A stretch of 64,000 bases of DNA, from IMG/VR virus record IMGVR_UViG_3300027851_000011; one strand, given 5' to 3'. Below, one piece after another: positions 23,896-64,000 of the stretch (position 1 is its first letter; each line of letters opens with the position of its first letter). The notes beneath the pieces were generated by a model that searched no databases, was not told the DNA's origin, and was given only the letters and a program-made list of their open reading frames with translations. A program made the translations under genes and the position numbers. The stretch is from a virus. Lineage: Duplodnaviria; Heunggongvirae; Uroviricota; Caudoviricetes.

Positions 23896-25278
23896 ATGAC
23901 CGCATCTAACGACATCGAAGTGACGATGGAGAAGCTGAAGATCCAGGTGCGCGATCTTCAGATGACCAACGAGAGACTGGCGCATGAGCTGGAGCAGGAG
24001 AAGCAGACCAGCAAGACGCAGCGCGAGCTGACGGGTCAATCGCATGATGCCAAGGTGGCAGTCGAGCGCCTCAACACCGAGCTGCGTGCCAAGCTGGTGA
24101 AACAAGACGAGTTCATCGCACATCTCCAGAAGCGATGCAAGGACGAGTCCGACGCCAACGACCGGATTCACGACAACCTGAAGGAACTCGCGAAGACCTG
24201 CGATGGCCTGCGCGCGGAGCTGCGGGACTACAACCCGTCGTTCATCGAGATGGAGAAGGCCGCGTACGAGACCCTCAAGGTGCTCGGCATCGACTCTCCG
24301 TTCACGCAGACCAAGAAGGAGACGATTCTGGAGGCGTTCAAGCGCATCCAGGCATGGCAGTGCCAGACGGAGCACCGCACCATCTCCGGTGTCATGATCG
24401 ACACGGCTCGCAGCATCGTGACCCGGTTCGACCTGCCAATCCAGTACGACATCTCACGGCCTGTGCGCGAGTTCATCCTCCATACGCTCACGGCGCTCGA
24501 CGAGAAGCTGCGCAAGAACATCGAAGACCGCAAGTTCGCGGATCTGAAGTTCGTCAAGGACATGGCCTCGACGAACACACAGCTGCTCGGCAAGGCACTC
24601 GTCACGGAGACCAATCATCCGCGCGACAACCTGCGCCTGCTGTTCGGTCAGCTGCATGACGCGATCCGTGCCAGCTTCAAGACGATTGAGAACAAGGACG
24701 CTCGCCTCGACGCGCGAGTCAGGACGATAGAAGAGGTCGTTGCCGAGCGCGATCGCCTGCGCGAAGAGCTGGAGTTCGAGCGCGAAGGCTGGGGAAAGCT
24801 CGGCATCGCGTTCTTCAACGACGAGACCAAGACGATGGAGGACTGCCTCATCGAAGCCAACCGCATCGCTGCACAGGGACGGAAGCAGGCCGAGTTCACC
24901 ATCAACATGGACGTGTTCACCGACAGCTGCCGCACGCACGCTGGCGATGGGCTGAATGATCTCGGATGGCCGACCGTGAAGACGGCTGGCACGCTGCTGA
25001 CGTCGATCAAAGCGAGCTGTGAGGCACTGCGCGCCTACCGCTCGACACTGATCAAGATCCAGTGTGCTGTCAAGGGCTCCACCAAGCTCAAGACGCTGGA
25101 CTACCACTGCAAGGTTGGTGATCTCGACCAGCTCGTCGAGGCCGTCAATGACTGCATCAGCATCGAGGCAAGCAACACGCGTGTGGTCGTCCGTGACGCC
25201 ATCGCGATGATCGAGAAGATCGAGAACACGGGTATGGACGCGCGCCGTCGCCTCCAGGCCCTCATCCCCAAGGGGTAA
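23896..25278 (+). CDS. Coiled-coil hypothetical protein (460 aa)
   Basis: Long heptad-like charged helical sequence. Confidence 0.45.
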   Translation: MTASNDIEVTMEKLKIQVRDLQMTNERLAHELEQEKQTSKTQRELTGQSHDAKVAVERLNTELRAKLVKQDEFIAHLQKRCKDESDANDRIHDNLKELAKTCDGLRAELRDYNPSFIEMEKAAYETLKVLGIDSPFTQTKKETILEAFKRIQAWQCQTEHRTISGVMIDTARSIVTRFDLPIQYDISRPVREFILHTLTALDEKLRKNIEDRKFADLKFVKDMASTNTQLLGKALVTETNHPRDNLRLLFGQLHDAIRASFKTIENKDARLDARVRTIEEVVAERDRLREELEFEREGWGKLGIAFFNDETKTMEDCLIEANRIAAQGRKQAEFTINMDVFTDSCRTHAGDGLNDLGWPTVKTAGTLLTSIKASCEALRAYRSTLIKIQCAVKGSTKLKTLDYHCKVGDLDQLVEAVNDCISIEASNTRVVVRDAIAMIEKIENTGMDARRRLQALIPKG

Positions 25279-32772: not shown

Positions 32773-33336
32773 ATGAGAATCTACCTCGACATGGACGGTG
32801 TGATCGCGAACTGGGTGAACGGCGTCATGTCAGCCTTCAACATGAAGGATGTCGACGAAGCCAACTTCACCAACTCGCGCGTCGATGACTACCTCGGCTA
32901 CAGCTACCGCCAGTTCTGGGACATTCTCAACCTGAAGGGCGAGAGCTTCTGGACTGGGCTGAAGCGATACCCGTGGAGCGACGCTGTCGTCGACATCTGC
33001 CACTCGTTCGATCCCAGCTTCCGTTTTCTGACCTCGCCGTCCGAGAGCCCGCTGGCCTGTTCGGGCAAGCTGAAGTGGCTGCAAGCCTACTACCCAGAGC
33101 ATGCCAATCGCTACATCTTCACCAAGCGCAAGGAAGACCTCAGCGGCCCTGGCCGTGTGCTCATCGACGACAGCGAGCACTACGAGGACGACTGGGCTGA
33201 AGCCGGCGGCTGCTTCATCCTGTTTCCACGGCCCTGGAACCGGCTGCGTGCCAACGCTGACCCAAACGAGATGGTCTTCTATCTGCGCGCACACCTGCGT
33301 GCGCACGACGACCGCATCAGCGGCGTGAAGCTGTGA
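32773..33336 (+). CDS. HAD-superfamily 5'(3')-deoxyribonucleotidase-like
   Basis: MRIYLDMDGVIANW carries the DxDGV motif I and resembles the NT5C family N-terminus. The start lies downstream of the terminator. Confidence 0.55.
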   Translation: MRIYLDMDGVIANWVNGVMSAFNMKDVDEANFTNSRVDDYLGYSYRQFWDILNLKGESFWTGLKRYPWSDAVVDICHSFDPSFRFLTSPSESPLACSGKLKWLQAYYPEHANRYIFTKRKEDLSGPGRVLIDDSEHYEDDWAEAGGCFILFPRPWNRLRANADPNEMVFYLRAHLRAHDDRISGVKL

Positions 33337-33569
33337 GCGAAGAGATAGACCCTGAAGATGTCTTCACAGCGCTACGACGGCCCATGCCGCCACGGAGCGT
33401 CTCGAAGAACGACATCATGTCGCTGACGCGCAAGATGCACAGCCTGCAACAACTCGGCCTCGATTATGTCAATCGTGGCAATGGAGACGACTACATGCTC
33501 CGCGTGGAGATGCTCGGCCTCCAACAACACCTCGAAGAGATCCTGAAACGATCGGAGAAACCCAAGTGA
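33333..33569 (+). CDS. Hypothetical small protein
   Basis: 78 aa ORF. Confidence 0.4.
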   Translation: MSEEIDPEDVFTALRRPMPPRSVSKNDIMSLTRKMHSLQQLGLDYVNRGNGDDYMLRVEMLGLQQHLEEILKRSEKPK

Positions 33570-34660
33570 ACACTCTCACCGACCCGGTGACCGGCGACCA
33601 GATGGTCGACGTCCTCGCTACCATCGCGCCTGAGCTGCTGAACCAGAAGTGCCTGGACCACGGCTTCGTCAAGATCCTGGACTGCATGCCGCGCCTCGTG
33701 CCGCTGCCAAAGGTCGACGGCGGAGGCCCCAACGACAACGGCGTGCCGTCCTGCGACTTTGCCATCGCTGACGCCGCTCGCATCAGCTACCAGAAGGGCA
33801 CCCGCAAGGTCAGCGCTGATGCTGGCCTGATCGACCACCTCATCCGCAACCAACACACCAGCCCAATCGAGATGGGCGAGCTGAAGTTCCACATCCGTCT
33901 GCCGATCTTCGTGATGCGGCAGCACGTGCGTCACCGCACGGCGAGCCTGAACGAAGAGTCCGCGCGCTACAGTGAGCTGGCCTCTGACTTCTACATCCCG
34001 GATGCCAAGGACTGGGCGCTGAACACGGCAGCTGACAAGCAGGCAACCGTCAAGTACAGCATCTCGCCGCTCCAGGCGCAGTGCCTGCACGACATGCTGA
34101 AGAAGCACAACGACCTGTCCTACAGCCTCTACCAGCAGTTCCTCGAAGGGTCGCTCGACGGCGAACTCGGCGATTCGCGCTATGGCGGTTCCAGCAACGC
34201 GCAGCCGTTCAACGGCCAGAGCCCGCTCGATCAGCTGCTCGCCAAGGTGCCGATCGCCCGAGAGCAGGCCCGTGCCGTGCTCGGCGTCAACATCTACACG
34301 CAGTGCGTGTGGAAGATCGACCTGAAGAACATGCTGCACTACCTGAAGCTGCGCACCGACAAGCATGCCCAGTACGAGATCCGCGTCTTCGCCGACGCCA
34401 TGGCCCGTGTGGTCGACGCCCTGTTCCCGCGCAGCTGGGAGAGCCACAAGGACAACTTCATCGACGGGGTGAACTTCTCCGGCAAGGAGCTGATCGTCCT
34501 CAACGGCATACTCAACGGCTTCGAACTCAACGCTGTGACGAGCAGCGGGTGGACCAAGCGCCGCTTCGACGAGTTCGCTGGCAAGCTGCGCCGCAGCAAG
34601 CTGGTGAGCGACGAGAAGATCGTCAACATCATCCACGAAGTCTGGCCGTCGGCAGTCTAA
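33566..34660 (+). CDS. thyX: Flavin-dependent thymidylate synthase ThyX
   Basis: ThyX signature RHRTASLNEESARY (RHR-x7-S). Confidence 0.8.
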   Translation: MNTLTDPVTGDQMVDVLATIAPELLNQKCLDHGFVKILDCMPRLVPLPKVDGGGPNDNGVPSCDFAIADAARISYQKGTRKVSADAGLIDHLIRNQHTSPIEMGELKFHIRLPIFVMRQHVRHRTASLNEESARYSELASDFYIPDAKDWALNTAADKQATVKYSISPLQAQCLHDMLKKHNDLSYSLYQQFLEGSLDGELGDSRYGGSSNAQPFNGQSPLDQLLAKVPIAREQARAVLGVNIYTQCVWKIDLKNMLHYLKLRTDKHAQYEIRVFADAMARVVDALFPRSWESHKDNFIDGVNFSGKELIVLNGILNGFELNAVTSSGWTKRRFDEFAGKLRRSKLVSDEKIVNIIHEVWPSAV

Positions 34661-35229
34661 TGGCTAACAACTACATGCTGTCGTCGTCGAGCATCGACAT
34701 CGGCGGCGCCGACCAGAACGCGATCCTGGCTGCTATGATCATGATCGAGAAGGCTCACGAACTCTACGGGACTGGCGACCCGGACGACAAGTCCGTCGAC
34801 GATGTCGATGCGTTCATTAAGAGCCTCGAACCTCCCGGCGACAAGCCGCTCCTGTTCGACAACCTCGACACGAAGAAGCGCGCTCAGCGCGTCATGAAGG
34901 TCGTGAAGAGCTGGAAGCTCGAATGGGAATACCTCGGATTCGACTGGCAGCTCGACGCCAAAGACATCTGGGTGAAGGCTGACGAGAGCATCGACGTCGA
35001 CTCTGCTGTCCGCTGCCTCCAGCTCCTGGCTACCGTCGTTCCCGAGATGCAGTCAGCTGCGCCCTGGTACATGACCTGGGCGTGCACGTGCTCCAAGATG
35101 CGCGTCGACGAGTTCGACGGTGGCGCTGTCGTGTTCACGCACCGCCGCGCCAAGTGGATGAACTCAAGCAGCTGGGCGAGCCGCACCGTCGAACAGTTCA
35201 AGAAGCAGATGAAGAAGGGAAAGAAGTAG
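34660..35229 (+). CDS. Hypothetical protein
   Basis: TAATG overlap with thyX, giving MANNYMLSSSSIDIGG... Confidence 0.45.
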   Translation: MANNYMLSSSSIDIGGADQNAILAAMIMIEKAHELYGTGDPDDKSVDDVDAFIKSLEPPGDKPLLFDNLDTKKRAQRVMKVVKSWKLEWEYLGFDWQLDAKDIWVKADESIDVDSAVRCLQLLATVVPEMQSAAPWYMTWACTCSKMRVDEFDGGAVVFTHRRAKWMNSSSWASRTVEQFKKQMKKGKK

Positions 35230-35559
35230 ATGGGCTACCGCTCACAGGTTGTCGTCGCCCTGAAGCCGGAGGTCGAAGTACCTCCGGCTATCCTCAAGCA
35301 CCTGCGCAGTCTCTTCAGCCACGCTGACGAAGGCCCAGACGGCAAGCTGTTCTTCGATAAGCACCTGAAGTGGTACATCGACGAGCCCGATTACTTCCCG
35401 GAGTGTCGTGCGATCCACGAGTACCTCCTGGATCTCGACGACGATCTGTACTACTTCGTTCGTGTCGGCGAGAACACTGCCGATGTCGACACGGCAGGTA
35501 GCTGGCACGAAGGCTTCGAAATCGACGTCTGCACACGCATCACGTTCAAAGGACAATAA
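35230..35559 (+). CDS. Hypothetical protein
   Basis: 109 aa ORF. Confidence 0.45.
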   Translation: MGYRSQVVVALKPEVEVPPAILKHLRSLFSHADEGPDGKLFFDKHLKWYIDEPDYFPECRAIHEYLLDLDDDLYYFVRVGENTADVDTAGSWHEGFEIDVCTRITFKGQ

Positions 35560-35730
35560 CCGTGCTCATCAGCGACTGGACAGCCATTACGCTGTCGCTC
35601 ACCACGCACTGGCGCATCGTCAGTCGTGGGTCTCAGATCATGTGGGTCACCCCACATCGCATCTGCGGCAGCTGGCTCGTCCAGTCGCCGACGCCCATCA
35701 TCCCCTGCTATGCCCACGAAGGAGACTGAC

Positions 35731-36129
35731 ATGCCGCCTATCGCAGAGACCGTCGACCGGCACAACAACCTCGTCACCGCAGTCGACGAGTTCCTGACCC
35801 AGATGACGGCGTACCTGCTGCTGCCGTCGCTTGGCTTCAAGCCAGACCCGAAGGACAGCCCACTCCGCAAGAAGGTCTACCAGGACATGATCGCGGCGTG
35901 CCACCATGCCAAGAGCTTCAAGCCGTACGACGACGCGCGTGTCCGTGGGCTCGATACCGAAGTCGAGACGCTGCGCACCTGGGGGAACAAGGACTGCACA
36001 GCCATGGCTGACAGCCAGGGCGGCCTCGACGCGTTCCACAAGAATCTGGAGATGCTGGCGCTCCAGTGCGAAGACGTCGATGACCTCTCGGTCGCCGATC
36101 CCGACGAGAACACGCCATGCTCCGGCTGA
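35731..36129 (+). CDS. Hypothetical protein
   Basis: In-frame ATG at 35731 with GGAGACTGAC upstream. Confidence 0.4.
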   Translation: MPPIAETVDRHNNLVTAVDEFLTQMTAYLLLPSLGFKPDPKDSPLRKKVYQDMIAACHHAKSFKPYDDARVRGLDTEVETLRTWGNKDCTAMADSQGGLDAFHKNLEMLALQCEDVDDLSVADPDENTPCSG

Positions 36130-36473
36130 ACATCGACCATCCCGTGGTCGAAACGCTCGTCGACACGCTGCTCACCATCAAGGTGACGGCTGACCGAGCG
36201 CCGAGCCACGTGCCATACGTGAAAGCCTTCTCGAAGAAGGCAGAAGAAGCCATCGCTGCCTATCGCGCCGAGCGCGACAAGGTCAATGGCGCCAAGGTCC
36301 GCACATCGAAGGAGTTGATCGACGGTCTCCAGAACCTCGTCAATGCCTTCGACACCGCTGCCCATCTCGTGAAGCTGGGCGGTTCCAACGAAGAGGCTGC
36401 GCTCTTCAAGCTCGATCAACAAACCCTCATCGGAATCATCCGAGAACTGAAGGTCCATCATGGGCTCGGATGA
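36117..36473 (+). CDS. Hypothetical protein
   Basis: 118 aa ORF. Confidence 0.4.
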   Translation: MLRLNIDHPVVETLVDTLLTIKVTADRAPSHVPYVKAFSKKAEEAIAAYRAERDKVNGAKVRTSKELIDGLQNLVNAFDTAAHLVKLGGSNEEAALFKLDQQTLIGIIRELKVHHGLG

Positions 36474-37233
36474 GGACGAGAAAGCGAAGAACGAACGACT
36501 TCTCCAGAAGCTGCGTGAGTATGGGACGAAGCATCCGATGCAGCGTCCTGCTGATCCTCTTCCGTATTTCAGTGAAAAGCTATATATCGAGTACATCGTT
36601 CCGAAGCTGAAGCAGTGGTTCACGGTCTATACACAGGTGAATGCCTTCCACTACTCTGGCCGTAGCTTGAGGTACGATCTGCTCGTCATTCCGACCGACG
36701 AGGCCGTCGGTCGTGTTTGCCAGTTTCCTTGGTTCGTCATCGAGACGAAGTTAGACATCTACAACAACAAATACAAGGAAATCAGCGAAGCATACATGCA
36801 GGCGTACGAGTACCGTAACACGGTTGTCAACGACACGCGATTCGTTGGCACTCCGCTTCATGGCGTTCGCCCACCAGCAGTCATGCTGTGCTCTGACATA
36901 ACGGGCAGGCTCTTCAAAGACGAAGGGCGCCGTGAGTGGGACTGGATCAGCCGGACATTCGGACGACGCGGTGTGTACTCGTTCTACGTCGACGACGCCA
37001 CAGCTATGGCTTTCACGCACCATGGTCACGTCTTCAACTACATGGGACAGCGACTCTGTAACATGAAGAATCATTCTGCCCTCCGCTTTAGCGGCGGGAT
37101 AGCTGACTGGTCCTCGTTCAAGTTACTTCTGACGTCAGACGGAGAATACCGAGAGATGACGGAAGAACTCATGACCATTGCTCGTGAAACGCAGAAACCA
37201 CCCGAAACCCCCGATGCCTGTCTAGGCAGTTAG
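36460..37233 (+). CDS. PD-(D/E)xK-like nuclease candidate in a low-GC stretch
   Basis: DLLVIPTDE...FVIETKL fits the D...ExK core. Codon usage is visibly AT-richer (aaa, tta, ata codons) than its neighbours. Confidence 0.45.
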   Translation: MGSDEDEKAKNERLLQKLREYGTKHPMQRPADPLPYFSEKLYIEYIVPKLKQWFTVYTQVNAFHYSGRSLRYDLLVIPTDEAVGRVCQFPWFVIETKLDIYNNKYKEISEAYMQAYEYRNTVVNDTRFVGTPLHGVRPPAVMLCSDITGRLFKDEGRREWDWISRTFGRRGVYSFYVDDATAMAFTHHGHVFNYMGQRLCNMKNHSALRFSGGIADWSSFKLLLTSDGEYREMTEELMTIARETQKPPETPDACLGS

Positions 37234-37243
37234 GAACATCACC

Positions 37244-37651
37244 ATGGCATTCCGTAAGTCCGGCCAGTACTACTGGTCAGATCCTGACGCCGGCAGCTGC
37301 TCTGCCGACGTCTTCGTCGTCAAGGAAGACGGCGAGAAGGTCACCGTCACCCACAAGCTGAAGAGCAAGTGCGCTGAAGGCGAATACACCGAGTTCGAGG
37401 TGCTCGCCAGCGAGCTATGTGCTATCAGCCAGTCCAACAAGCCGCGCTACGTGATCGCTGGCGTCAACCAGATCGACAGCGACACCGGCGAGCCGAAGTT
37501 CTGGTCGACGGAGCACGGCTGGACCAAGCTGGTCAAGGCCGACGCGCTGTCGATCCGCACCTACGACAACCTGAAGGCCGGTCGTGGCACCGTTGCTGGT
37601 GACTACGTCGTCCTCCAGCTGCCGGCTGACGTCGTCATCGCCCTCGCGTGA
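37244..37651 (+). CDS. Hypothetical protein
   Basis: 135 aa ORF with RBS GGAACATCACC upstream. Confidence 0.45.
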   Translation: MAFRKSGQYYWSDPDAGSCSADVFVVKEDGEKVTVTHKLKSKCAEGEYTEFEVLASELCAISQSNKPRYVIAGVNQIDSDTGEPKFWSTEHGWTKLVKADALSIRTYDNLKAGRGTVAGDYVVLQLPADVVIALA

Positions 37652-37815
37652 AGAAGCTCAAGCTGCTGAAGAAGAACGTCATCAAGCTCCCGCCGAAGGC
37701 ATTCAAGCAAGTCCTCAAGATCATCAACGATCCGAAGCCACCGAACGCGGCACTGAAGCGCGCAGCGCGGAAGTACCGTGACGAGGTGAAGGCCGGAAAG
37801 CTGAAAAGCACATGA
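37650..37815 (+). CDS. Small basic protein (about 54 aa)
   Basis: GTG start overlaps the upstream stop. Translates VKKLKLLKKNVIKLPPKAFKQVLKIIND... Confidence 0.25.
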
Positions 37816-38387
37816 ACATCATCCTCCGGGCCGCCAAGTTCGCTGAGATCGCCCACCATGGGCAGAAGCGGAAGGGCATGGACCTTCCGTACATCATCCA
37901 CCCTGGCCGCGTCGCTGCACGCATCTCGCGCCTCGACAACGCCACCGAAGAGATGGTCGCTGCCGCGTGGTGTCACGACATTCTCGAAGACACCACCGTC
38001 CCGGCCAACGACATCGGCAACAGCCTCAACTTCGGAACCATGCAGCTGGTTCTCGAACTGACGAACCCGTCGCACAAGCCCGAGAACAAGGCTCTGAATC
38101 GTGCTGCCCGCAAGCAGCTCGATCGAGAGCACCTGTCAAAGGTCAGCCTCGAAGCCAAGTGCATCAAGCTCGCGGACAGGGCTGATAACCTGCGCGAGAT
38201 GGGGCACTTCGCTGATTCATTCAAGCGTCTGTACGCGTCCGAGTCCCGGCTGCTGTACAACGCTCTCAGTGAGGACAACGGCATCACGTCGTCTGCCGTT
38301 TCGAGCCTCGCAACCATGCCGCTCTTTGACGAACTCGATGCTGCCATCCGGTGGCTCGAACAGACCATCGACCCCGAGCACTACTGA
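37812..38387 (+). CDS. HD-domain phosphohydrolase of the RelA/SpoT (Mesh1/SAH-like) type, putative (p)ppGpp hydrolase
   Basis: HHGQKRKGMDLPYIIHPGRVA...AAWCHDILEDT matches the SpoT hydrolase HxGQxR...PYxxHP...HDxxED pattern. Confidence 0.6.
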   Translation: MNIILRAAKFAEIAHHGQKRKGMDLPYIIHPGRVAARISRLDNATEEMVAAAWCHDILEDTTVPANDIGNSLNFGTMQLVLELTNPSHKPENKALNRAARKQLDREHLSKVSLEAKCIKLADRADNLREMGHFADSFKRLYASESRLLYNALSEDNGITSSAVSSLATMPLFDELDAAIRWLEQTIDPEHY

Positions 38388-38397
38388 AAGGCTCACC

Positions 38398-38700
38398 GTG
38401 AACATCTTCAAGTACATCATCCCCCACAAGAACCGCTCTGTCGTGCAGATGCCGGCCGGCGCCAAGATCACCCACGTGGCCCCGCAGGTCAACGCGGAGA
38501 CCGGCGAGACCCAGATCTGTGCCTGGGCGCTCGTGCCCGAGAACGTCGAGGGCGACTGCGCCGAGGTGAAGTTCCAGATCGTGGGCACCGGCGGCAAGGC
38601 GCCCGCTGGCTACACCTACGCTGGCATCCTGATCCTTCACAACACCACGATCATCCAGCACGTCTTCTTCGACAGCACCGCGCCCATCGTCAAGATCTGA
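38398..38700 (+). CDS. Hypothetical protein
   Basis: GTG start within ORF 38101..38700 after the upstream stop. Confidence 0.35.
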   Translation: MNIFKYIIPHKNRSVVQMPAGAKITHVAPQVNAETGETQICAWALVPENVEGDCAEVKFQIVGTGGKAPAGYTYAGILILHNTTIIQHVFFDSTAPIVKI

Positions 38701-38701
38701 C

Positions 38702-38917
38702 ATGGCCAAGCGGCGCTTCGTTGAGCTGACGCTGGCCGATCCCCGGCCAGTGGCAGCTCCTGGCCGCGCTGTGATGGTGGTCCGGCGTCACGTCCTGTAC
38801 GTGACGCCGGCTCTTCACCCACTGCGGCGAGACAAGGTGAGCACCATCGTGATGCGCGACAGCGTGAGCATCGACGTCGAAGGCAGTGCTATCGACGTAG
38901 CAAAGAGGCTGGAATGA
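38702..38917 (+). CDS. Hypothetical small protein
   Basis: 71 aa ORF. Confidence 0.35.
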   Translation: MAKRRFVELTLADPRPVAAPGRAVMVVRRHVLYVTPALHPLRRDKVSTIVMRDSVSIDVEGSAIDVAKRLE

Positions 38918-39777
38918 CAACTTCGACCACGACACGCAAGCTCTACTTCACGATCCATGGCGAGTGGCTGACGAACTTCTGCCGCTCCCGGTGGGCCGAT
39001 GAAGACGAGCCGTTCCACGCTGTGAAGGTGCTCACCTCGGCTTTCCCCGAGTTCAGCATGCAGCGCATCTTCCAGATCCTGACGGGTTCTCTGAAGCTCG
39101 CAGGCAAGTCGAGTGGCCCCGACTCCGACATGCACCTCGAAGATGACAACGTCACAGTGAGCGAGCATGGCAACTTGCTGTCGTTCTCTGACGTGATGTC
39201 CAAGACGCTGACGCGCATGATCGACAAAGCCGCCGAGAAGCGGCTGGCCGAGCCGCTGCGTCTGCTCAGCATTGCCATCGAAGAAGAGGACGAGAGACGG
39301 CGTGACCAGCGCGTGCGCATGGCCATCCAGTTCGCTGACCAGTCGGTGGCAGAACCCAAGCTCGATAGCTTCAGAATCGGCGGAGCCCTCGTTCCGCGTG
39401 AGATCCTGAAGGATCCGAACGCCATGTTCTTCATGCAGTACATGGGCGCTACGGCTGAAACCGTCAAACCAGAGCCAGGGCCACTGAAGGGCAACTGGTG
39501 CGGTTGGATCAAAAAGGACGGGGTCTTCTTCCCGTGCAAGTACTTCCAGCACGACGCACTCGCTGATGCGCTGGGGTACAAGAACGGTGACGAGATGCTC
39601 AAACAAGGATGGGTGAAAGTCCAGGAAGCAAACCAGGGCCTCATCAAGAAGCCTGCTGACCTCTATTGGCACACCAAGCCAACCCAGTCGCAGATCGACA
39701 CGATCTGGGATTGGTGCAAAGACAACAACCGTGAGTTCCCAAAGGACCAACTCGATGAGTACCAAGATCATCCCTGA
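38914..39777 (+). CDS. Hypothetical protein
   Basis: 287 aa ORF. Confidence 0.45.
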   Translation: MTTSTTTRKLYFTIHGEWLTNFCRSRWADEDEPFHAVKVLTSAFPEFSMQRIFQILTGSLKLAGKSSGPDSDMHLEDDNVTVSEHGNLLSFSDVMSKTLTRMIDKAAEKRLAEPLRLLSIAIEEEDERRRDQRVRMAIQFADQSVAEPKLDSFRIGGALVPREILKDPNAMFFMQYMGATAETVKPEPGPLKGNWCGWIKKDGVFFPCKYFQHDALADALGYKNGDEMLKQGWVKVQEANQGLIKKPADLYWHTKPTQSQIDTIWDWCKDNNREFPKDQLDEYQDHP

Positions 39778-40162
39778 AACCATCATCAAGCGCGGCTACG
39801 TCACCACTGACGAGTACGAGGCGATGAGTGCCAGCAAGAAGCTGGAGAAGGTGAACCTCGGCAAGCGAAAGGCCGGCTCCGACGAGCAAGAGGATGTCGA
39901 AGGCATCTGGGTCTACCCGCTCGAATCGACCGACACGCCTGGAACGAAGTTCCACTTCGTCCTCTTCAACGACCCGGTCTTCACGCGGGGCCCGCGTCCA
40001 CTCGCTGGCATGGTCGGCGTCGGCCACGCCACGGGCAGGGACTCGCGTGGCCGGGCCTACACCGACGAGTGCATCGAACTCTTCAAGAAGGCTGGTCAGG
40101 CGGCCATCGACTACCACAACTCGGTCGTCGCGGCCGAGAATGCCAAGAAAGAGAAGAACTGA
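39755..40162 (+). CDS. Hypothetical protein
   Basis: In-frame Met within ORF 39731..40162. Confidence 0.4.
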   Translation: MSTKIIPETIIKRGYVTTDEYEAMSASKKLEKVNLGKRKAGSDEQEDVEGIWVYPLESTDTPGTKFHFVLFNDPVFTRGPRPLAGMVGVGHATGRDSRGRAYTDECIELFKKAGQAAIDYHNSVVAAENAKKEKN

Positions 40163-41422
40163 ATGGTCGATGTCATGCCGGACAAGGTCGTCATCGTGTG
40201 CGTGAGCACTGAGGCGACCTCAACGTCTAAGAACAACAGCAACAAGTTCCATAAGTGGGAGAAGCAGGCCGACGGCCAGTTCCTCCACAGCTATGGACGC
40301 GTCGGTGACCCCGGCGTCACGCATCTCGTCAGCGAGAGCAAGGCACGCGCGAAGCTGAAGAGCGCGCTGAAGGACGGCTACAAGGAGGTGGCGATCGCTG
40401 GTGCAGAGCCAGCACAGCCGCAGACCAAGGGCGCTGCTACGGCGAAGACCGCCGTCGACGAGATCGCTAAAGGCGATCCGACCATCGCCAAGCTGGTTAC
40501 CTTCCTCAGCGAGCAGAACGTCCACAACATCTCGTCGGCTACTACGCTGAAGTACGACAAGGTGTCGGGCCTGTTCAGCACGCCGCTCGGCATCGTCAGC
40601 CAGGACTCGATCGACGAAGCACGCGAGCGTCTCGCGGAGATTCAGCATGTGCTGACAGCGCCGGGTATGGTAGTGGAAGCTGATGTCAACAAGCTGGCTG
40701 CTGCCTACATGATGCTCATCCCGACGGACATAGGCCGTGACCGGCCGACGTTCAATCGGATGTTTCCGAACCTCGACGCTGTGCAGAAGCAGAACGACAT
40801 CCTCGAATCCCTCGAAGGTTCGCTGGAGATGGCTGCCAAGCCAGTGAAGAGCAAGAAGGCACCGAAGGCACCTCGCGTGTGGGACATTGACATCAAGAAG
40901 ATGCTCGACACGACCGAGATCGAGCGCATCCGCACCAAGTTCAAGAAGACCTACGAGTACGGACGCCCCGACATGGATGTTCGCAACGTCTACGACGTGA
41001 CGATCAACCATATGAAGAAGGCGTTCGACAAGGAGGGCAAGAAGATCGGCAACGTCGAAGAGATGTGGCACGGCACCAGCGTCGGCAACGTCCTCTCCAT
41101 CTTCGCCAAGGGCCTCATCATCCCTGCCCACTGCTCGAACGGTCGCAACTTTGGCAACGGCGTCTATGCCAGCCGCCAGAGCCACAAGAGCATGAGCTAC
41201 GCCGGGCAGTTCCGCTCGTCGGTTCGTCGCAGCTGCTACATGTTCCTGGTCGAAGTCGCGATGGGCAAGGGCTTCATCCCGAAGTCCCGCGTCCAGAGCC
41301 CGCCTGCGGGCTACGATTCTGTCGACGTCGTCCCAGGCGCCGCCGGATTCAGCGCGCATGAAGCGATCGTCTACAAGACGAGCCAGACCAACGTGGTTCG
41401 TCTGATCGAGTTCGCTGCGTGA
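40163..41422 (+). CDS. PARP-family ADP-ribosyltransferase with N-terminal WGR domain
   Basis: WGR region KWEKQADGQFLHSYGRVGDPG. Catalytic H-Y-E elements MWHGTSVGNVLSIFAKGL, GNGVYASRQSHKSMSYA and YMFLVEVAMG. Confidence 0.7.
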   Translation: MVDVMPDKVVIVCVSTEATSTSKNNSNKFHKWEKQADGQFLHSYGRVGDPGVTHLVSESKARAKLKSALKDGYKEVAIAGAEPAQPQTKGAATAKTAVDEIAKGDPTIAKLVTFLSEQNVHNISSATTLKYDKVSGLFSTPLGIVSQDSIDEARERLAEIQHVLTAPGMVVEADVNKLAAAYMMLIPTDIGRDRPTFNRMFPNLDAVQKQNDILESLEGSLEMAAKPVKSKKAPKAPRVWDIDIKKMLDTTEIERIRTKFKKTYEYGRPDMDVRNVYDVTINHMKKAFDKEGKKIGNVEEMWHGTSVGNVLSIFAKGLIIPAHCSNGRNFGNGVYASRQSHKSMSYAGQFRSSVRRSCYMFLVEVAMGKGFIPKSRVQSPPAGYDSVDVVPGAAGFSAHEAIVYKTSQTNVVRLIEFAA

Positions 41423-41718: not shown

Positions 41719-41842
41719 TGACTGGGACATCGACTGGAACGGCCCGAACGAGTGCGAGATCACCCACCCCAACCTAGCGTCCGGCTTCAAGGCAAAACTT
41801 CGCCCTGACGACTGGCCGATCACGAACGGAGAACCAGCATGA
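41612..41842 (+). CDS. Hypothetical small protein
   Basis: MLLVIYQHSGSKYVSKENATQQDLANW... within ORF 41573..41842. Confidence 0.35.
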   Translation: MLLVIYQHSGSKYVSKENATQQDLANWISRKTKDDDDWDIDWNGPNECEITHPNLASGFKAKLRPDDWPITNGEPA

Positions 41843-43218
41843 GTACTTCATCACCAGCGTCAGACGCACCGCTACTGAACTCGGTGCTACAGAAACTGCT
41901 CGATTCGTCGGGCGACGCGAACCTCGATCTCGTGGCATCGACATTCGGGCTTCCCCGGATGTCCGAGATGCCGCGACCCGGACTCGTCAGGGCCTGGGAC
42001 TTCGACGAGTGGAAGGCATGGGCAGAACCGTACGGCCTCGTGGAACTGCCGAGAACAACGCACAGCTACGTGCTGTGCCACCCGAAGCTGAAGATGCTTC
42101 GCGTCGCCATGTCCTCGTCGACCGGCGATGTGAAGTCACGACTCAACCTCGGAAGTGACGTCAGGCAGGCATTCCGATTCGAATACTCACGTATCGCAAA
42201 CTACTGCTGCCACCTCGTCGACAGGTACATCCAGAGGCACGAGGATCGCACTGCGTTCAACAACGAGCAGGAGATCATGCTCGCACTCCGAGACGAGGTG
42301 CTGGAGACCCGTCACACCGACAAGTATTCGGAGCGGCCAGATGGCAAGGACGCTCGTGATCGTATCGAAGCCGTCGAAGACCTGATCGGAGCGCCGAAGG
42401 CCAAAGCCGCGTCGCTGAAGCGGCTGCTGATGAAGGCATCGGACGTCACAGGCCAGCCAGCACGAAGTGTCGTGAAACGGCTCGTGGCTCTGTCGATGTC
42501 TGACATCGACGCAGGCGATCCAGCGTCACGCGAGAAAGTCGCTGAGCGTGTCTACAAGGTCATCATCGACGAACTCGGTGTGCGGCACTCGTCGTGCGAG
42601 CTGTTCATGGATGCCCTGAAGGACATCATCGAGACCCACGAGGCCATCGAAGAAGAACAGAAGCGAGCCAAACTCGAAGCTCGTGAAGCTGCGCGTGCCG
42701 AGCGTCAGAAGGTCAGCAAGCAAGATGCGCAGGCTCTCGTCACTGACGATCCTGCTGCCTTCGCCAAGGCCATGGCTGACATCCGTGGATCGTTCCTGAA
42801 GCATACCGGGCCGCTGCTGACTACGATGAACGAGGCAATGACGCAAGTGCGAGCACTCGCCGAGCACTCGGCGAGCTTCCCGTCGCCGTCGTACCCAACA
42901 GCCAAGCTGGCTGAACTCGGGACTGCCAACGCCATGCTGTTCGAGAGGGCGTCGTCCCTCGAAGACCAGCTCGAAGACATGAAGACCGCCAAGGATGCGG
43001 TCGATGTCGAACTGAAGCGGCTGAAGGATGAGCACGCCATTGCAGAGCAAATGCTTGCCGAAGCCGGCACGCACTCTGACTGGCGAGGCGCATACGCCGA
43101 ACTTGTCACCACGCTGGACGCTGCTCTCGCGAGCAGTGACTTCCTCCAGCTGGCTGTCGGTGTGCAAACAGCACGGCAGGCCCTTGTCGCTGCCAAAGCA
43201 AAGATCGCGCAGTCATGA
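41839..43218 (+). CDS. Coiled-coil hypothetical protein (459 aa)
   Basis: Long ORF whose C-terminal half is helical and charged. Confidence 0.45.
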   Translation: MSTSSPASDAPLLNSVLQKLLDSSGDANLDLVASTFGLPRMSEMPRPGLVRAWDFDEWKAWAEPYGLVELPRTTHSYVLCHPKLKMLRVAMSSSTGDVKSRLNLGSDVRQAFRFEYSRIANYCCHLVDRYIQRHEDRTAFNNEQEIMLALRDEVLETRHTDKYSERPDGKDARDRIEAVEDLIGAPKAKAASLKRLLMKASDVTGQPARSVVKRLVALSMSDIDAGDPASREKVAERVYKVIIDELGVRHSSCELFMDALKDIIETHEAIEEEQKRAKLEAREAARAERQKVSKQDAQALVTDDPAAFAKAMADIRGSFLKHTGPLLTTMNEAMTQVRALAEHSASFPSPSYPTAKLAELGTANAMLFERASSLEDQLEDMKTAKDAVDVELKRLKDEHAIAEQMLAEAGTHSDWRGAYAELVTTLDAALASSDFLQLAVGVQTARQALVAAKAKIAQS

Positions 43219-43520: not shown

Positions 43521-43770
43521 TCTGAAGGTCGGAGGTCTCGACGACGAGATGGACCCGTCACAGTACTTACACATGGAGGGCTGCGACCGATGCGGGAAGT
43601 TGAACGCACGTGTTTCAGAACGGTACTGGACCGATCGCAACGAGACGCTCTTCATGCGAATGCCGACTCTCGACGAGGTCATTCAGGGCCTCGTCGAAGT
43701 CGATCACGACTTCTGGCTCGAACACATCAAAACCATCAAGGAACAATATGGAAACGCCAATGCTGAGTGA
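43456..43770 (+). CDS. Hypothetical protein
   Basis: In-frame Met (MSLRCLLGFHKF...) within ORF 43399..43770. Confidence 0.35.
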   Translation: MSLRCLLGFHKFRVLTKEHGFDLKVGGLDDEMDPSQYLHMEGCDRCGKLNARVSERYWTDRNETLFMRMPTLDEVIQGLVEVDHDFWLEHIKTIKEQYGNANAE

Positions 43771-44398
43771 ATCAAAGTGCTGCGAGCCGTCGAAGCCGAC
43801 CAAGTTCGGCCTCAGCAGCGATGAACGCAACCAGATGTACTGGGGACGAAACCCGGACATGGTCGCACCGACGCGTCAGGTCATCATCAACCGCGATGGT
43901 GTCACCATCGAGCTATGGGACGCTTCGTTTGTCCGTGCGACCGTACTGGTCGCTCGTGAAGGTGCGCTCGGCACCATCAACGCCGAGTACGATTCGAATC
44001 TCATGGGTGATGGGCTGCCGCGCTGCTACCTGCTTTGGCAGGCGCTCACCGGCGGCAAGGGCAGCTTCTGCTACATCAGTGATCTGTGGGTCGCCCGCGA
44101 GTTCCGTCGCAAGGGCCTCGGATCTTGGATGCTCAAGCAGATCCTGAGCGGTTCCCCGTTCCAGCGCATCTACCTCGCGTCGAACTCGCACGGTGCGATG
44201 AGCAACTACGAGCTGTACACGTTCTACGAGAAGCACGGCTTCCGCCGTGTCGACAGCGATGTTTCGCTCATGGAATATGTGCGTGGCAACGAACCGAAGA
44301 TCAAGCCCACTGGGCTGGCTGAGGTCGCGTGTCAGCTCGACTCGGTCATCAATGCGAAGAAACAGGATTCTGTGGGGATGGCATGCCGCGCACCATAG
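43760..44398 (+). CDS. GNAT-family N-acetyltransferase
   Basis: Motif A ISDLWVAREFRRKGLGSWMLKQIL with YEKHGF near the C-terminus. Confidence 0.55.
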   Translation: MLSESKCCEPSKPTKFGLSSDERNQMYWGRNPDMVAPTRQVIINRDGVTIELWDASFVRATVLVAREGALGTINAEYDSNLMGDGLPRCYLLWQALTGGKGSFCYISDLWVAREFRRKGLGSWMLKQILSGSPFQRIYLASNSHGAMSNYELYTFYEKHGFRRVDSDVSLMEYVRGNEPKIKPTGLAEVACQLDSVINAKKQDSVGMACRAP

Positions 44399-62496: not shown

Positions 62497-63159
62497 ATGG
62501 CTGATTACGTTCTGTACATCCAACACGTCTACGGCAATGCCACTGACAACCACCTCGCACTGCGCGCGGCGGCAAAGAAGACGGAAGACCCGCTTCAGCG
62601 TAAGTGGCTGAACCCGTGGAAGATCCCGACCGAGATCCTGACGAAATGCGGCGGCCTCATGGTCGACCGCGAGTTCGTCGCCCGTCAGCGCGGCCACGGT
62701 GACTGGAGCTACAGCTCTGGTCGCTCTGGCTACGGCTGCCGTGGTTGGATCGAAGTCGAGATCGAGGTCGACGATCTGTCGGTGTCGCACACCGAACTCG
62801 ATCTCTCGATCGACAACAAGTGGAGCCTCTGGTCTCGCTGGGGCCTTGATGGCGGTTACGACTTCGTCGAGCCACTGTTCAAGTGCATGCCCATCGGATC
62901 AGTGATCCACACGCGACTCGCCTGCTGGAAGGAAATCCGGTACGGGTCGTTCAACATCTTCCGCAACAAGAGCGGATGGCACTGTGCTGGCGAGATGCAC
63001 ACCTGCTGGGACGACGATTCGATGACGGAGCACTGCTTCGACTGGAATCGCCGAGCTGTGAAGCACGTCATGAAGCAACTGGATCACGAAGAAGACCACC
63101 TGCTGAAGATGGACGCGCATCGGTCGAAGACCGAACCCATGGTCGAAGACGACGAATAA
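62497..63159 (+). CDS. Hypothetical Trp/Cys-containing protein
   Basis: 220 aa, preceded by a 125-bp intergenic region and RBS AAGGAGCC. Confidence 0.45.
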   Translation: MADYVLYIQHVYGNATDNHLALRAAAKKTEDPLQRKWLNPWKIPTEILTKCGGLMVDREFVARQRGHGDWSYSSGRSGYGCRGWIEVEIEVDDLSVSHTELDLSIDNKWSLWSRWGLDGGYDFVEPLFKCMPIGSVIHTRLACWKEIRYGSFNIFRNKSGWHCAGEMHTCWDDDSMTEHCFDWNRRAVKHVMKQLDHEEDHLLKMDAHRSKTEPMVEDDE

Positions 63160-63172
63160 CCACTAACAACAT

Positions 63173-63198
63173 CCTGCGGCAGTGAACGCTGCCGCAGG
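63173..63198 (+). terminator. GC-rich hairpin downstream of the 62497 gene
   Basis: CCTGCGGCAG-tgaacg-CTGCCGCAGG. Confidence 0.35.
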
Positions 63199-63214
63199 GC
63201 ATTGAAAGGACCAC

Positions 63215-64000
63215 ATGAAGACGCCGAGACCACACCAGAAAGAAGCCATCGAGGCTGTCGTGAACGGGTTCAAAGCCCACAACCGAGGCAAGCTCATCAT
63301 GGCTTGCGGAACTGGCAAGACGCTCGTCGCGAACTGGGTTCGGGAGGGACTGTCGGCTGTACGAACCATCGTTTTTGTTCCGTCGATAGCGCTGATAGCA
63401 CAAACGATACGTGAATGGACAGCTGCATGCTCAGATAACTTCGAGGCACTGGCTGTTTGTTGTGACGCGACAGTAGCCGATTCAGGAACGTCGACAGTCG
63501 ACGGCGACGAAGATGAATCAACAGCTAATGTGGAAGCTGCTGTCACTACTGATTATCGTTCCATATCGGCGTTCCTTCAGAAGCCTGGGCATCGTGTCGT
63601 CTTCTCGACGTATCAATCATCAGAGACTGTAGCAGAGGCACTTAGCCTTGCTGGTACTCCGCAGTGTGATCTAGTAATCGCAGATGAAGCACACAGAACG
63701 GCTGGAGCACTCGGCGGCCTATTCACTACTGTTCTCGACGACAACCGAGTTCCATCGGTGCATAAGTTGTTCATGACTGCAACGCCACGGCTGTATCATG
63801 AAAACTCAGATACTCCAATAGCTTCGATGGATGACGAGAAACTATATGGTCCTGAGTTCCATCGTCTTGATCTCGCAGATGCAGTAGCCCGTGGACTTTT
63901 GTCAGACTACGAGATTCTCATAGTATTTGCCACGACGAAAGAGGCCAGGGACCTCCTGAAGAAGAATCCGCGTCTACGCGTTCGTGATCGCGCATTACAG
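63215..64000 (+). CDS. Superfamily-2 DEAH helicase, 5' portion, running off the window end; low-GC composition
   Basis: Not in the ORF track because no stop falls within the window. Translation gives MKTPRPHQKEAIEAV... with motif I MACGTGKT, motif II DLVIADEAHR and motif III LFMTATP. Local GC is clearly lower. Confidence 0.6.
   Translation, partial: MKTPRPHQKEAIEAVVNGFKAHNRGKLIMACGTGKTLVANWVREGLSAVRTIVFVPSIALIAQTIREWTAACSDNFEALAVCCDATVADSGTSTVDGDEDESTANVEAAVTTDYRSISAFLQKPGHRVVFSTYQSSETVAEALSLAGTPQCDLVIADEAHRTAGALGGLFTTVLDDNRVPSVHKLFMTATPRLYHENSDTPIASMDDEKLYGPEFHRLDLADAVARGLLSDYEILIVFATTKEARDLLKKNPRLRVRDRALQ

What the first reader, a model, noticed from the sequence alone, without database searches (positions are those of the whole stretch)
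36460..37233. Low-GC PD-(D/E)xK nuclease-like gene, a candidate mobile or defence-related insertion
Base composition over this ORF drops visibly (codons such as aaa, tta, ata, ttt) relative to the flanking 60-65% GC genes. The protein has a D...ExK core (IPTDE...FVIETKL). Freestanding nucleases with deviant GC in phage genomes are often homing endonucleases or acquired anti-defence or defence genes.
Basis: seen in the sequence. Interest (0 to 1): 0.55.

Follow-up and report, generated by a model that had tools for sequence, protein, structure and literature searches.

The report
New phage restriction-fold nuclease, persistently low-GC
This gene in a large uncultured phage encodes a previously unclassified DNA-cutting enzyme of the restriction-enzyme fold; it comes and goes and changes position among related phages and is GC-poor wherever it occurs, but it is not a fresh insertion here and nothing ties it to defence.

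Summary
The ORF is real (36460-37233, +, 257 aa). It has the lowest GC of 80 coding-like ORFs in the window (0.531 vs 0.601; GC3 0.65 vs 0.77), and the low-GC segment matches the ORF boundaries.

No sequence library recognises it (Pfam, PHROGs, NCBIfam, PADLOC, PDB, GenBank phages). An exhaustive HMMER search of 1.84 billion representatives found five relatives, and one more search added another: seven sequences in all, on phage-like metagenome contigs.

The gene is accessory: collinear in one relative, in a different slot in another, absent from the region in a third. It is 5-8 GC points below its flanks in all six loci. Here it is translationally coupled, has no insertion scars, and lacks the phage's avoided palindromes.

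Verdict: a new small family in a known superfamily, probably an active nuclease. The role is unresolved; a selfish homing-type endonuclease is my leading guess (about 0.3). Recent insertion is unlikely and a defence role has no support.

The parts
36460..37233 (+). ORF of 257 aa (P0001): founding member of a seven-sequence phage family of PD-(D/E)xK-fold nucleases
   Evidence: ORF. Relatives P0002-P0007 at 35-51% identity. No Pfam, PHROG, NCBIfam, PADLOC or PDB sequence hit.
36556..36903 (+). Residues 33-148: restriction-endonuclease-like core (helix 39-50, strands 54-64, 69-78 and 92-97, helix 105-118, strand 141-145)
36574..36576 (+). Codon of E39, an invariant acidic residue in the first helix (probable auxiliary active-site residue)
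   Evidence: Invariant in the five full-length members of alignment A2. The role is inferred from the usual PD-(D/E)xK layout.
36676..36678 (+). Codon of D73 (in YDLL, strand 2): inferred metal-binding aspartate of the D...ExK motif
Evidence: Conserved in all 6 sequences that cover it.
36742..36750 (+). Codons of E95-T96-K97: the (D/E)xK motif in strand 3
   Evidence: E95 and K97 are invariant in 7 of 7 sequences. They lie in predicted strand 92-97.
36799..36813 (+). Codons of Q114-A-Y-E-Y118: invariant QxxxY in the helix after the ExK strand
   Evidence: Q114 and Y118 are invariant in 7 of 7 sequences and lie in helix 105-118. The resemblance to the RecB/Cas4-type motif is from my own knowledge and was not tested.
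36868..37035 (+). Further invariant motifs of unknown role: R137-P-x-A...C144-S-D146, R165...F-G-R-x-G-V-Y173, F-T186-x-H188-G189-x-x-F192
   Evidence: Invariant columns. Model confidence here is mixed: pLDDT 72-80 for 171-190, below 50 for 149-162.
36449..36473 (+). Shine-Dalgarno-like GAAGG (36449-36453), ATG at 36460, and a 14-nt overlap with the stop of the upstream ORF 36117-36473 (translational coupling)
   Evidence: Read directly from the sequence. No promoter-like site in 33000-40500, and no terminator bracketing the gene.
36405..37282 (.). Low-GC segment (0.526 against 0.612 outside)
   Evidence: Maximum-likelihood two-changepoint fit and minimal-sum segment.
37244..37651 (+). Context: 135-aa downstream neighbour, also immediately downstream of the nuclease in L009 (43% identity)
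   Evidence: tblastn. No family hit. No other homolog found.
38338..38700 (+). Context: DUF7352 gene, a synteny anchor shared with L009 and L010
   Evidence: Gene call with PF24043 (L001 11879-12241, which is window 38338-38700). PHROG hits phrog_3848 and phrog_31149. tblastn.
40163..41422 (+). Context: PARP-like gene (PARP_reg + PARP), a synteny anchor. The nuclease lies 0-3 kb upstream of it in the window, L008 and L009, but not in L010

Best explanation
The ORF encodes a metal-dependent DNA endonuclease of the restriction-endonuclease-like (PD-(D/E)xK) fold. Its inferred active site is E39 (first helix), D73 (strand 2) and E95-x-K97 (strand 3), backed by Q114/Y118 in the following helix.

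It is the founding member of a very small phage-only family that no current library holds. It is transcribed and translated as part of the + strand replication and nucleotide-metabolism operon.

It is an accessory gene that has been shuffled among related large phages: present, absent, or in another slot. It has been resident in this lineage for some time and is not a new arrival.

For its biological role I commit to the reading I consider most likely, though only narrowly: a free-standing, selfish homing-type endonuclease. It would cut a site in nuclease-less relatives during co-infection and be copied in by recombinational repair.

What is shown: the fold, the residue conservation, the variable presence and position, and the family-wide GC deficit. 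What is inferred: catalysis, the substrate and the homing role.

My layered confidence is: fold 0.9, active nuclease 0.75, accessory or shuffled gene 0.65, homing-type role about 0.3.
For: Fold:
- AlphaFold2 on the family alignment gives core pLDDT 70-95 with alpha-beta-beta-(alpha)-beta-alpha-beta order. [quoted passage not shown]
- BFVD hits include an Mrr-domain viral protein, E 1.7e-4.

Active site:
- D73, E95, K97, Q114 and Y118 are invariant in every member that covers them. 27 columns are invariant across 7 sequences at 35-50% identity, which indicates purifying selection.

Accessory and shuffled:
- Seven sequences among about 15 billion proteins.
- None in GenBank phages, IMG/VR or GTDB genomes.
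- Collinear with its neighbours in L009. In L008 it sits between the 287-aa gene homolog and the PARP-like gene, where the window has an unrelated 143-aa ORF. It is absent from the polymerase-DUF7352-PARP region of L010, whose PARP-like protein is 74% identical.
- GC is 4.7-8.4 points below the flanks, and GC3 is 9-31 points below the other genes, in 6 of 6 loci.

Homing expectation: free-standing phage HEGs are sporadic and cluster near essential replication and nucleotide-metabolism genes (PMC10448857). HEGs with this fold exist, such as I-Ssp6803I and the Vsr-like I-Bth0305I (PMC3424549).
Against: - There is no biochemical evidence.
- The model is weak outside the core: mean pLDDT 67, and residues 196-233 are below 50.
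- No separate DNA-binding module was recognised that would give the long target site typical of homing enzymes.
- No empty-site allele with conserved flanks was found, so homing is not demonstrated.
- No degenerate copies were seen, which the homing cycle would predict, although the sample is only seven.
- The gene is tightly coupled to its neighbours, like an ordinary operon gene.
- The nuclease tree is star-like at 35-50% identity, so transfer cannot be separated from saturation.
- Variable position could reflect ordinary rearrangement of a plastic region.
Confidence: 0.35

Rival explanations
1. A nuclease that benefits the phage by degrading host or competitor DNA (an orphan, restriction-enzyme-like endonuclease). 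It would feed the phage's nucleotide-salvage module or shut down the host, with the phage genome escaping because it lacks the target sites.
For: - It lies among nucleotide-metabolism genes: ThyX, a deoxyribonucleotidase-like gene, an HD phosphohydrolase and a MazG-like gene. ThyX is also within 1 kb in L002.
- It is a single-domain PD-(D/E)xK protein of about 250 aa forming a tiny, fast-diverging family, as type II restriction enzymes do. The superfamily's high sequence dissimilarity is noted in PMC3424549.
- The window lacks many palindromes completely: AATT 0 vs 78 expected, CTCGAG 0 vs 45 and others.
Against: - Distribution among relatives is sporadic, with the gene absent near PARP in L010. 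That fits poorly with a core host-takeover function.
- No methyltransferase or DNA-modification gene was found among the neighbours tested.
- The many avoided sites are explained more simply by host restriction systems.
- Avoidance sets differ between nuclease-bearing loci, and L002 avoids none of them.
Confidence: 0.22
2. A recombination, repair or replication-associated structure-specific nuclease (junction resolvase, flap or mismatch endonuclease of the NucS, Hjc or RecB-like kind) that serves phage DNA replication and packaging.
For: - It is located in the replication module, with DNA polymerase, helicase and exonuclease subunits.
- The invariant QxxxY after the ExK strand resembles RecB/Cas4-type nucleases (motif recalled from my own knowledge).
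Against: - A replication or recombination nuclease should be broadly conserved at a fixed position in related phages. This one is missing or moved and absent from IMG/VR and GenBank phages.
- No Pfam, PHROG or NCBIfam match to any recombination nuclease family.
- No conserved partner such as an annealing protein or helicase across loci.
- Only two cysteines are conserved, so there is no Cas4-type four-cysteine Fe-S cluster.
Confidence: 0.15
3. One reading: a recently inserted foreign cassette, possibly a defence or anti-defence gene, betrayed by GC that has not yet drifted towards that of the phage.
For: - It has the lowest GC and GC3 of 80 ORFs, with boundaries matching the ORF.
- Structural neighbours include defence nucleases: Shedu SduA, Can2/Card1, HamA, Cap4 and NucC.
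Against: - The same deficit is seen in 6 of 6 loci whose proteins are only 35-50% identical, so it is an old family trait.
- The gene is collinear with its neighbours in L009.
- It contains 0 of this phage's lineage-specific avoided palindromes against 4.9 expected (P = 0.004).
- There are no flanking repeats beyond chance, no tRNA, and no promoter or terminator of its own.
- No PADLOC model matches any member.
- No conserved partner genes as in multi-gene defence systems.
Confidence: 0.07
4. A non-catalytic or regulatory derivative of the nuclease fold: a DNA-binding factor like XisH, annotated as an excision-controlling factor rather than a cutting enzyme.
For: - Many PD-(D/E)xK-fold proteins have lost catalysis (my own knowledge).
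Against: - All canonical catalytic positions (D73, E95, K97) are invariant across the family. Inactive derivatives usually lose them.
- No Pfam XisH match.
Confidence: 0.07

Closest known systems
AF1548 (PDB 1Y88) and the Mrr_cat family (PF04471; catalytic domain of type IV restriction enzyme Mrr)
XisH (PF08814; PDB 2OKF), fdxN element excision controlling factor of cyanobacteria
   Different: No Pfam hit. XisH is about 130 aa and mostly cyanobacterial (PMC3424549), whereas this protein is 257 aa and found on phage-like contigs. XisH works together with XisI (reference 115 in PMC3424549), and no conserved partner exists here.
Free-standing homing endonucleases of phages (T4 seg/mob genes) and homing enzymes with this fold (I-Ssp6803I, PF11645; Vsr-like I-Bth0305I)
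   Same: A stand-alone nuclease gene in a replication and nucleotide-metabolism region. It is sporadic among relatives and occupies different slots. HEGs cluster near essential genes (PMC10448857), and a PD-(D/E)xK homing enzyme is a known precedent (PMC3424549).
NucS/EndoMS and RecB/Cas4-like nucleases
   Different: No Pfam or NCBIfam hit. It has no NucS N-terminal DNA-binding domain and no Cas4 four-cysteine cluster. It is not conserved the way a repair enzyme would be.
Nuclease effectors of defence systems (Shedu SduA, Can2/Card1, Cap4, NucC, HamA)
   Different: No PADLOC model matches. It has no sensor domain (CARF, SAVED) and no partner genes. It is encoded in a lytic-type operon of a large phage, not in a defence island.

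Membership tests
PD-(D/E)xK phosphodiesterase superfamily (restriction endonuclease-like fold) | [quoted passage not shown] | tested here: met
PD-(D/E)xK phosphodiesterase superfamily (restriction endonuclease-like fold) | Conserved D ... (D/E)xK active-site residues on strands 2 and 3 | tested here: met
   D73 is conserved in 6 of 6 sequences and E95/K97 in 7 of 7, on the predicted strands 69-78 and 92-97. The 3D geometry was not inspected.
PD-(D/E)xK phosphodiesterase superfamily (restriction endonuclease-like fold) | Metal-dependent phosphodiester cleavage | not testable with these tools
   Needs biochemistry.
Mrr_cat (PF04471) | Match to the family profile above its threshold | tested here: not met
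   No Pfam hit for any of the 7 members at E <= 10. hhalign of the family profile against E. coli Mrr gives probability 0.5%.
Mrr_cat (PF04471) | Structural similarity to a family member (1Y88) | tested here: met
XisH (PF08814) | Match to the family profile | tested here: not met
RecB/Cas4-like nucleases | Match to the PDDEXK_1 / Cas_Cas4 profiles | tested here: not met
   No Pfam or NCBIfam hit.
RecB/Cas4-like nucleases | QxxxY motif in the helix after the ExK strand (recalled from my own knowledge) | tested here: inconclusive
   Q114 and Y118 are invariant and helical. Whether they are equivalent to the RecB motif was not tested structurally.
RecB/Cas4-like nucleases | Four conserved cysteines binding an Fe-S cluster (Cas4, AddB) | tested here: not met
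   Only C87 and C144 are conserved.
Free-standing homing endonuclease genes | Presence/absence and positional polymorphism among related genomes | tested here: met
   The window and L009 share one slot, L008 has another slot, and the gene is absent from the region in L010. It is absent from IMG/VR relatives. The relatives are distant (PARP-like 64-74% identity), so this is suggestive, not decisive.
Free-standing homing endonuclease genes | Membership of a known homing family (LAGLIDADG, GIY-YIG, HNH, His-Cys, I-Ssp6803I-like, EDxHD) | tested here: not met
   No Pfam or PHROG hit.
Free-standing homing endonuclease genes | Site-specific cleavage of the endonuclease-less allele, and super-Mendelian inheritance | not testable with these tools
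   Needs enzyme assays and mixed infections. No empty-site allele with conserved flanks was found.
Known anti-phage defence systems (PADLOC-DB) | Match to a defence protein model and co-located partner genes | tested here: not met
   No meaningful PADLOC hit in 7 members. No conserved neighbour across loci.
Type II restriction-modification system | Adjacent cognate DNA methyltransferase | tested here: not met
   None of the ten neighbouring ORFs scanned between 33566 and 40159 has a methyltransferase domain. The Pfam marks on the called genes of L002-L004, L008 and L009 show none either.

The most novel reading that the evidence does not exclude
The enzyme is an orphan, restriction-enzyme-like endonuclease that needs no methyltransferase, because the phage protects itself by lacking the site. 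The 64-kb window has completely lost AATT and a dozen six-base palindromes. Under this reading, one of those is the nuclease's own target, so it shreds host or competitor DNA while the phage genome is invisible to it. This has not, to my knowledge, been described for a phage nuclease. A second unexcluded variant is a functional pairing with the nearby PARP-like enzyme, which is adjacent and overlapping in L008: DNA breaks would activate ADP-ribosylation.
Probability: 0.07. Interest if true: 0.7.

Novelty: new member of a known kind. Interest (0 to 1): 0.3.

Why it matters
It adds a new sequence family, unrecognised by Pfam, PHROGs, NCBIfam and PADLOC, to the largest nuclease superfamily. It also gives the family a defined set of catalytic and family-specific residues that can be tested.

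The more general lesson concerns method. A GC dip confined to one gene is usually read as recent horizontal acquisition. Here the same dip is carried by six copies that have diverged to 35-50% identity, and the copy in the window already carries the resident phage's own site-avoidance signature. So the low GC is a stable property of the gene family, either selected or maintained by continual shuffling in a lower-GC pool. It is not a time-stamp.

If the enzyme proves to be a site-specific homing or restriction-like nuclease, it could be a useful reagent. It would also be a marker of genetic exchange among a poorly known group of large, roughly 60% GC phages.

Tried and rejected
- **Single-sequence library searches.** Pfam, PHROGs and PDB sequences returned nothing. 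Per-member scans of Pfam, PADLOC, NCBIfam and PHROGs gave only chance hits. A family profile against PDB sequences gave only a spurious melanotransferrin hit, E 0.58.
- **GenBank phages.** megablast of 6 kb and tblastn of the protein found no match.
- **Word-indexed search of 5.8 billion clusters.** It found only the query. The exhaustive HMMER search was needed to find relatives.
- **Single-sequence AlphaFold.** Unusable, pLDDT 34.
- **Foldseek against PDB.** No hit with E < 1e-3, though the list is thematically consistent. AFDB50 was not available.
- **Scans for family members.** None found in IMG/VR, GTDB genomes or JGI metagenomes.
- **Search for an empty site through the flanking genes.** The 118-aa and 135-aa neighbours have no relatives in IMG/VR. 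The 135-aa protein has none in the word-index search. The PARP-like protein has none in IMG/VR, alone or as an alignment.
- **Conserved partner gene.** An all-against-all comparison of the first four loci (L001-L004) found none. The 114-118-aa ORFs upstream in each locus are unrelated.
- **Insertion scars.** There are no significant flanking direct or inverted repeats, no promoter-like site, no bracketing terminator and no tRNA.
- **Nuclease phylogeny against phage relatedness.** The tree is star-like at 35-50% identity, so the test is uninformative.
- **Whole-window minimal-sum segmentation.** It failed because the second half of the window is slightly GC-poorer. I replaced it with local changepoint fits.
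- **Linking one avoided palindrome to the nuclease.** Avoidance sets are not shared across nuclease-bearing loci.
Full report
**1. The observation**

An ATG-initiated ORF of 257 aa lies exactly at 36460..37233 on the + strand. Its composition stands out:
- GC is 0.531. Seventy-nine other coding-like + strand ORFs in the window average 0.601 (sd 0.025). This ORF is the lowest, with z -2.8 (z -3.3 against ORFs of at least 150 aa).
- GC3 is 0.651 against 0.772, also the lowest. A codon-adaptation index built from the other genes is 0.535 against 0.696, the second lowest.
- Only 0.5% of 774-bp windows are this GC-poor.
- A two-changepoint likelihood fit places the low-GC segment at 36405-37282. 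It coincides with the ORF to within about 50 bp at each end.
- About one third of the deficit comes from amino-acid composition (the protein is rich in Tyr and Phe and poor in Ala). About two thirds is synonymous codon choice, and on that component the ORF again ranks lowest of 80.

**2. What the genome is**

The window matches nothing in GenBank phages at the DNA level. The protein occurs on three assemblies, including a contig of 200,781 bp.

The surrounding genes are a replication and nucleotide-metabolism module on one strand. It includes a DNA polymerase, helicase, exonuclease subunit, ThyX, a deoxyribonucleotidase-like protein, an HD phosphohydrolase, a MazG-like protein and a PARP-like protein. 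Most other ORFs have no family assignment.

This is a large, poorly sampled phage. I did not look for structural genes, so "phage" rests on the PHROG matches and on IMG/VR relatives of ThyX.

**3. The family**

No library recognises the protein: Pfam, PHROGs and PDB sequences, and no tblastn hit in GenBank phages. The word-indexed search of 5.8 billion clusters found only the protein itself.

The exhaustive HMMER scan of 1.84 billion representatives found five relatives at 38-51% identity, all with E below 1e-43. A profile search added one more. That makes seven sequences in about 15 billion proteins. IMG/VR, 185,579 prokaryotic genomes and the JGI contig collection gave no further members. 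Scanning all seven members against Pfam, PADLOC, NCBIfam and PHROGs gave only chance hits.

The alignment has 27 columns invariant in all seven sequences and 47 in the five full-length ones. They include E39, D73, E95, K97, Q114, Y118, R137-P138, C144-S145-D146, R165, G168-R169-x-G171-V172-Y173 and T186-x-H188-G189.

The only invariant acidic residue between strands 1 and 3 is D73, in (Y/F)D(L/F)(L/V).

**4. The fold**

A single-sequence AlphaFold model was useless (pLDDT 34). With the seven-sequence alignment the model reaches pTM 0.63, and pLDDT is 70-95 over residues 33-148. The order of elements is helix 39-50, strands 54-64 and 69-78, a short helix, strand 92-97, helix 105-118 and strand 141-145. 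[quoted passage not shown]

- **1Y88:** it is filed under Mrr_cat, and its D38/E51/K53 align with restriction-enzyme catalytic residues (PMC3424549; PMC1874628).
- **Foldseek against PDB:** no individually significant hit, but the same families appear at the top.
- **Foldseek against BFVD:** an uncharacterised Caudovirales protein (E 5.9e-5) and a viral Mrr-domain protein (E 1.7e-4, rmsd 3.5 A).

D73 sits in strand 2, E95/K97 in strand 3, E39 in the first helix and Q114/Y118 in the helix after the ExK strand.

The nuclease-fold claim is therefore well supported. Catalysis is inferred from conservation. Membership of Mrr_cat, XisH or RecB/Cas4 is not supported at the sequence level. This is a separate family within the superfamily.

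**5. Is it an insertion?**

Locally, there is no sign of one:
- The ATG lies 6 nt after a GAAGG Shine-Dalgarno-like site.
- The ORF overlaps the stop of the upstream ORF by 14 nt, and the next gene starts 10 nt after its stop.
- There is no promoter-like site in 33.0-40.5 kb, no bracketing terminator, no flanking repeat above chance and no tRNA.

Comparatively, six loci carry a family member. All are dense arrays of mostly same-strand small genes.

| Locus | Relationship to the window | Where the nuclease is |
|---|---|---|
| L009 | Nuclease 51% identical; PARP-like 74% | Collinear: nuclease, homolog of the 135-aa neighbour (43%), DUF7352, PARP-like |
| L008 | PARP-like 64%; 287-aa gene 61% | A different slot: starts in the last 14 nt of the 287-aa gene homolog and overlaps the PARP-like start by 4 nt; the window has an unrelated 143-aa ORF there |
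| L010 | PARP-like 74%; DNA polymerase 54% | Order is polymerase, DUF7352, PARP-like; no family member within 8 kb upstream |
| L006, L007 | ThyX 60%; IMG/VR jumbo contigs | None within 10 kb of ThyX; IMG/VR as a whole has no member |
| L002-L004 | Share few or no other genes with the window | Nuclease present, with unrelated neighbours |

The gene is therefore accessory and positionally variable among related phages.

**6. What the low GC means**

In all six loci the nuclease gene is 4.7-8.4 GC points below its flanks. It is 9-31 GC3 points below the other called genes, and it ranks lowest or near-lowest in each locus. The six proteins are only 35-50% identical to each other, so synonymous sites have long been saturated. 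The deficit is thus a stable family property, not DNA that has yet to drift towards the resident composition.

An independent test agrees. The window shows extreme, lineage-specific palindrome avoidance. AATT occurs 0 times against 78 expected. Twelve of 40 six-base palindromes with expectation of at least 8 are absent, against 14 of 2,601 non-palindromes. The nuclease gene contains none of the avoided sites, where synonymous-codon shuffles of the gene give 4.9 (P = 0.004). The other loci have different avoidance sets. Strong selection could purge a handful of sites quickly, so this excludes only a very recent arrival.

Either selection keeps the gene GC-poor (for instance, low expression of a toxic enzyme), or the family keeps moving within a slightly GC-poorer gene pool. 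I cannot distinguish these.

**7. Function**

What is shown is the fold, the conserved catalytic residues, operon embedding, sporadic and shifting occurrence, and the family-wide compositional deficit.

- **Homing-type endonuclease (about 0.3).** I commit narrowly to this reading. It explains the sporadic presence, the slot change within one neighbourhood, the fast divergence with preserved catalytic residues, and the location in a replication and nucleotide-metabolism region, where phage HEGs cluster (PMC10448857). Homing enzymes of this fold are known (PMC3424549). Against it, there is no recognisable extra DNA-binding module, no empty-site allele, no degenerate copies and tight operon coupling.
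- **Host or competitor DNA degradation (about 0.22).** A restriction-like nuclease tied to nucleotide salvage.
- **Structure-specific recombination or repair nuclease (about 0.15).**
- **Recent foreign or defence cassette (about 0.07).**
- **Non-catalytic XisH-like factor (about 0.07).**

No partner gene is conserved across loci. The recurring proximity to the PARP-like gene in the window, L008 and L009 is most simply shared ancestry. L010 has the PARP-like gene without the nuclease nearby, and L002 and L003 have the nuclease without a PARP-like gene within the available flanks.

**8. Novelty and verdict**

This is a new, very small family within a well-known superfamily: a new member of a known kind. 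The finding is solid but moderately ordinary.

The family-wide GC deficit and the window's striking palindrome avoidance are the more unusual observations. Interest is 0.3.

Noticed in passing
window 1-64000 (whole window): Extreme palindrome avoidance. AATT is 0 observed against 78 expected (16 by maximal-order Markov), TTAA 2/29, CTAG 14/97. Twelve of 40 six-base palindromes with expectation >= 8 are completely absent: CTCGAG 0/45, GAGCTC 0/42, CCGCGG 0/34, CTGCAG 0/32, TCCGGA 0/21, ATCGAT 0/20, CCCGGG 0/14, ACCGGT, AGGCCT and GAATTC 0/12, GCTAGC 0/10, CAATTG 0/9. By contrast, 14 of 2,601 non-palindromes are absent. The non-palindromic GAGGAG/CTCCTC (0/25-30) and GAGAGT (0/21) are also absent. 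This looks like a strong anti-restriction signature and suggests the DNA is not protected by modification at these sites.
   Followed up: partly
L002, L006, L007, L008 (whole loci): Related phage contigs have different avoidance sets. L007 lacks CTCGAG, GAGCTC, CTGCAG, CCGCGG and TTAA. L006 lacks CTCGAG, GAGCTC, CTGCAG and ATCGAT. L008 lacks AATT and TTAA. L002 keeps all of them. Avoidance is lineage-specific, presumably tracking the hosts' restriction systems.
   Followed up: partly
window 40163-41422 (+); L008 1158-2447; L009 2080-2625; L010 8001-9260; L011 8001-9293: A phage-encoded PARP-like protein of 419 aa, with Pfam PARP_reg + PARP and phrog_23333. It is conserved at 44-74% identity in five metagenomic phage contigs, including a 34% GC contig of 151 kb. 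In L008 its start overlaps the stop of the nuclease by 4 nt. Its function in phage infection is unknown.
   Followed up: partly
window 37648-37815 (+): A 55-aa ORF two genes downstream of the nuclease matches the TacA antitoxin-like family: PF08681, E 4e-5, 24 bits against a cutoff of 21. No adjacent toxin was identified. A GNAT acetyltransferase lies 6 kb away at 43610-44398.
   Followed up: no
window 33566-34660 (+) and 33384-33569 (+): ThyX is unusually long at 364 aa, with the Thy1 domain at residues 65-288. It is preceded by a 61-aa ORF whose homolog in L002 sits immediately downstream of the nuclease there (E 8e-9). The nuclease lies within 1-3 kb of ThyX in both phages, but on opposite sides.
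   Followed up: partly
window 62900-64000: This is the only other stretch of the window as GC-poor as the nuclease gene: 774-bp windows reach a minimum GC of 0.516 at about 63201. It has no convincing long + strand ORF after 63159. It may be an intergenic or regulatory region.
   Followed up: no
window 17322-20144, 23896-25278, 41839-43218 (+): Three large ORFs (940, 460 and 459 aa) in the replication module have no Pfam or PHROG match. The 940-aa protein has a 35%-identical homolog next to the DNA polymerase in L010, so it is probably a conserved replication component of unknown type.
   Followed up: no
window 37812-38387 and 38338-38700 (+): The HD-domain phosphohydrolase gene (PF13328, E 1.9e-13) and the DUF7352 gene overlap by 50 nt in different frames. 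L009 and L010 keep DUF7352 but lack the HD gene at this position.
   Followed up: no
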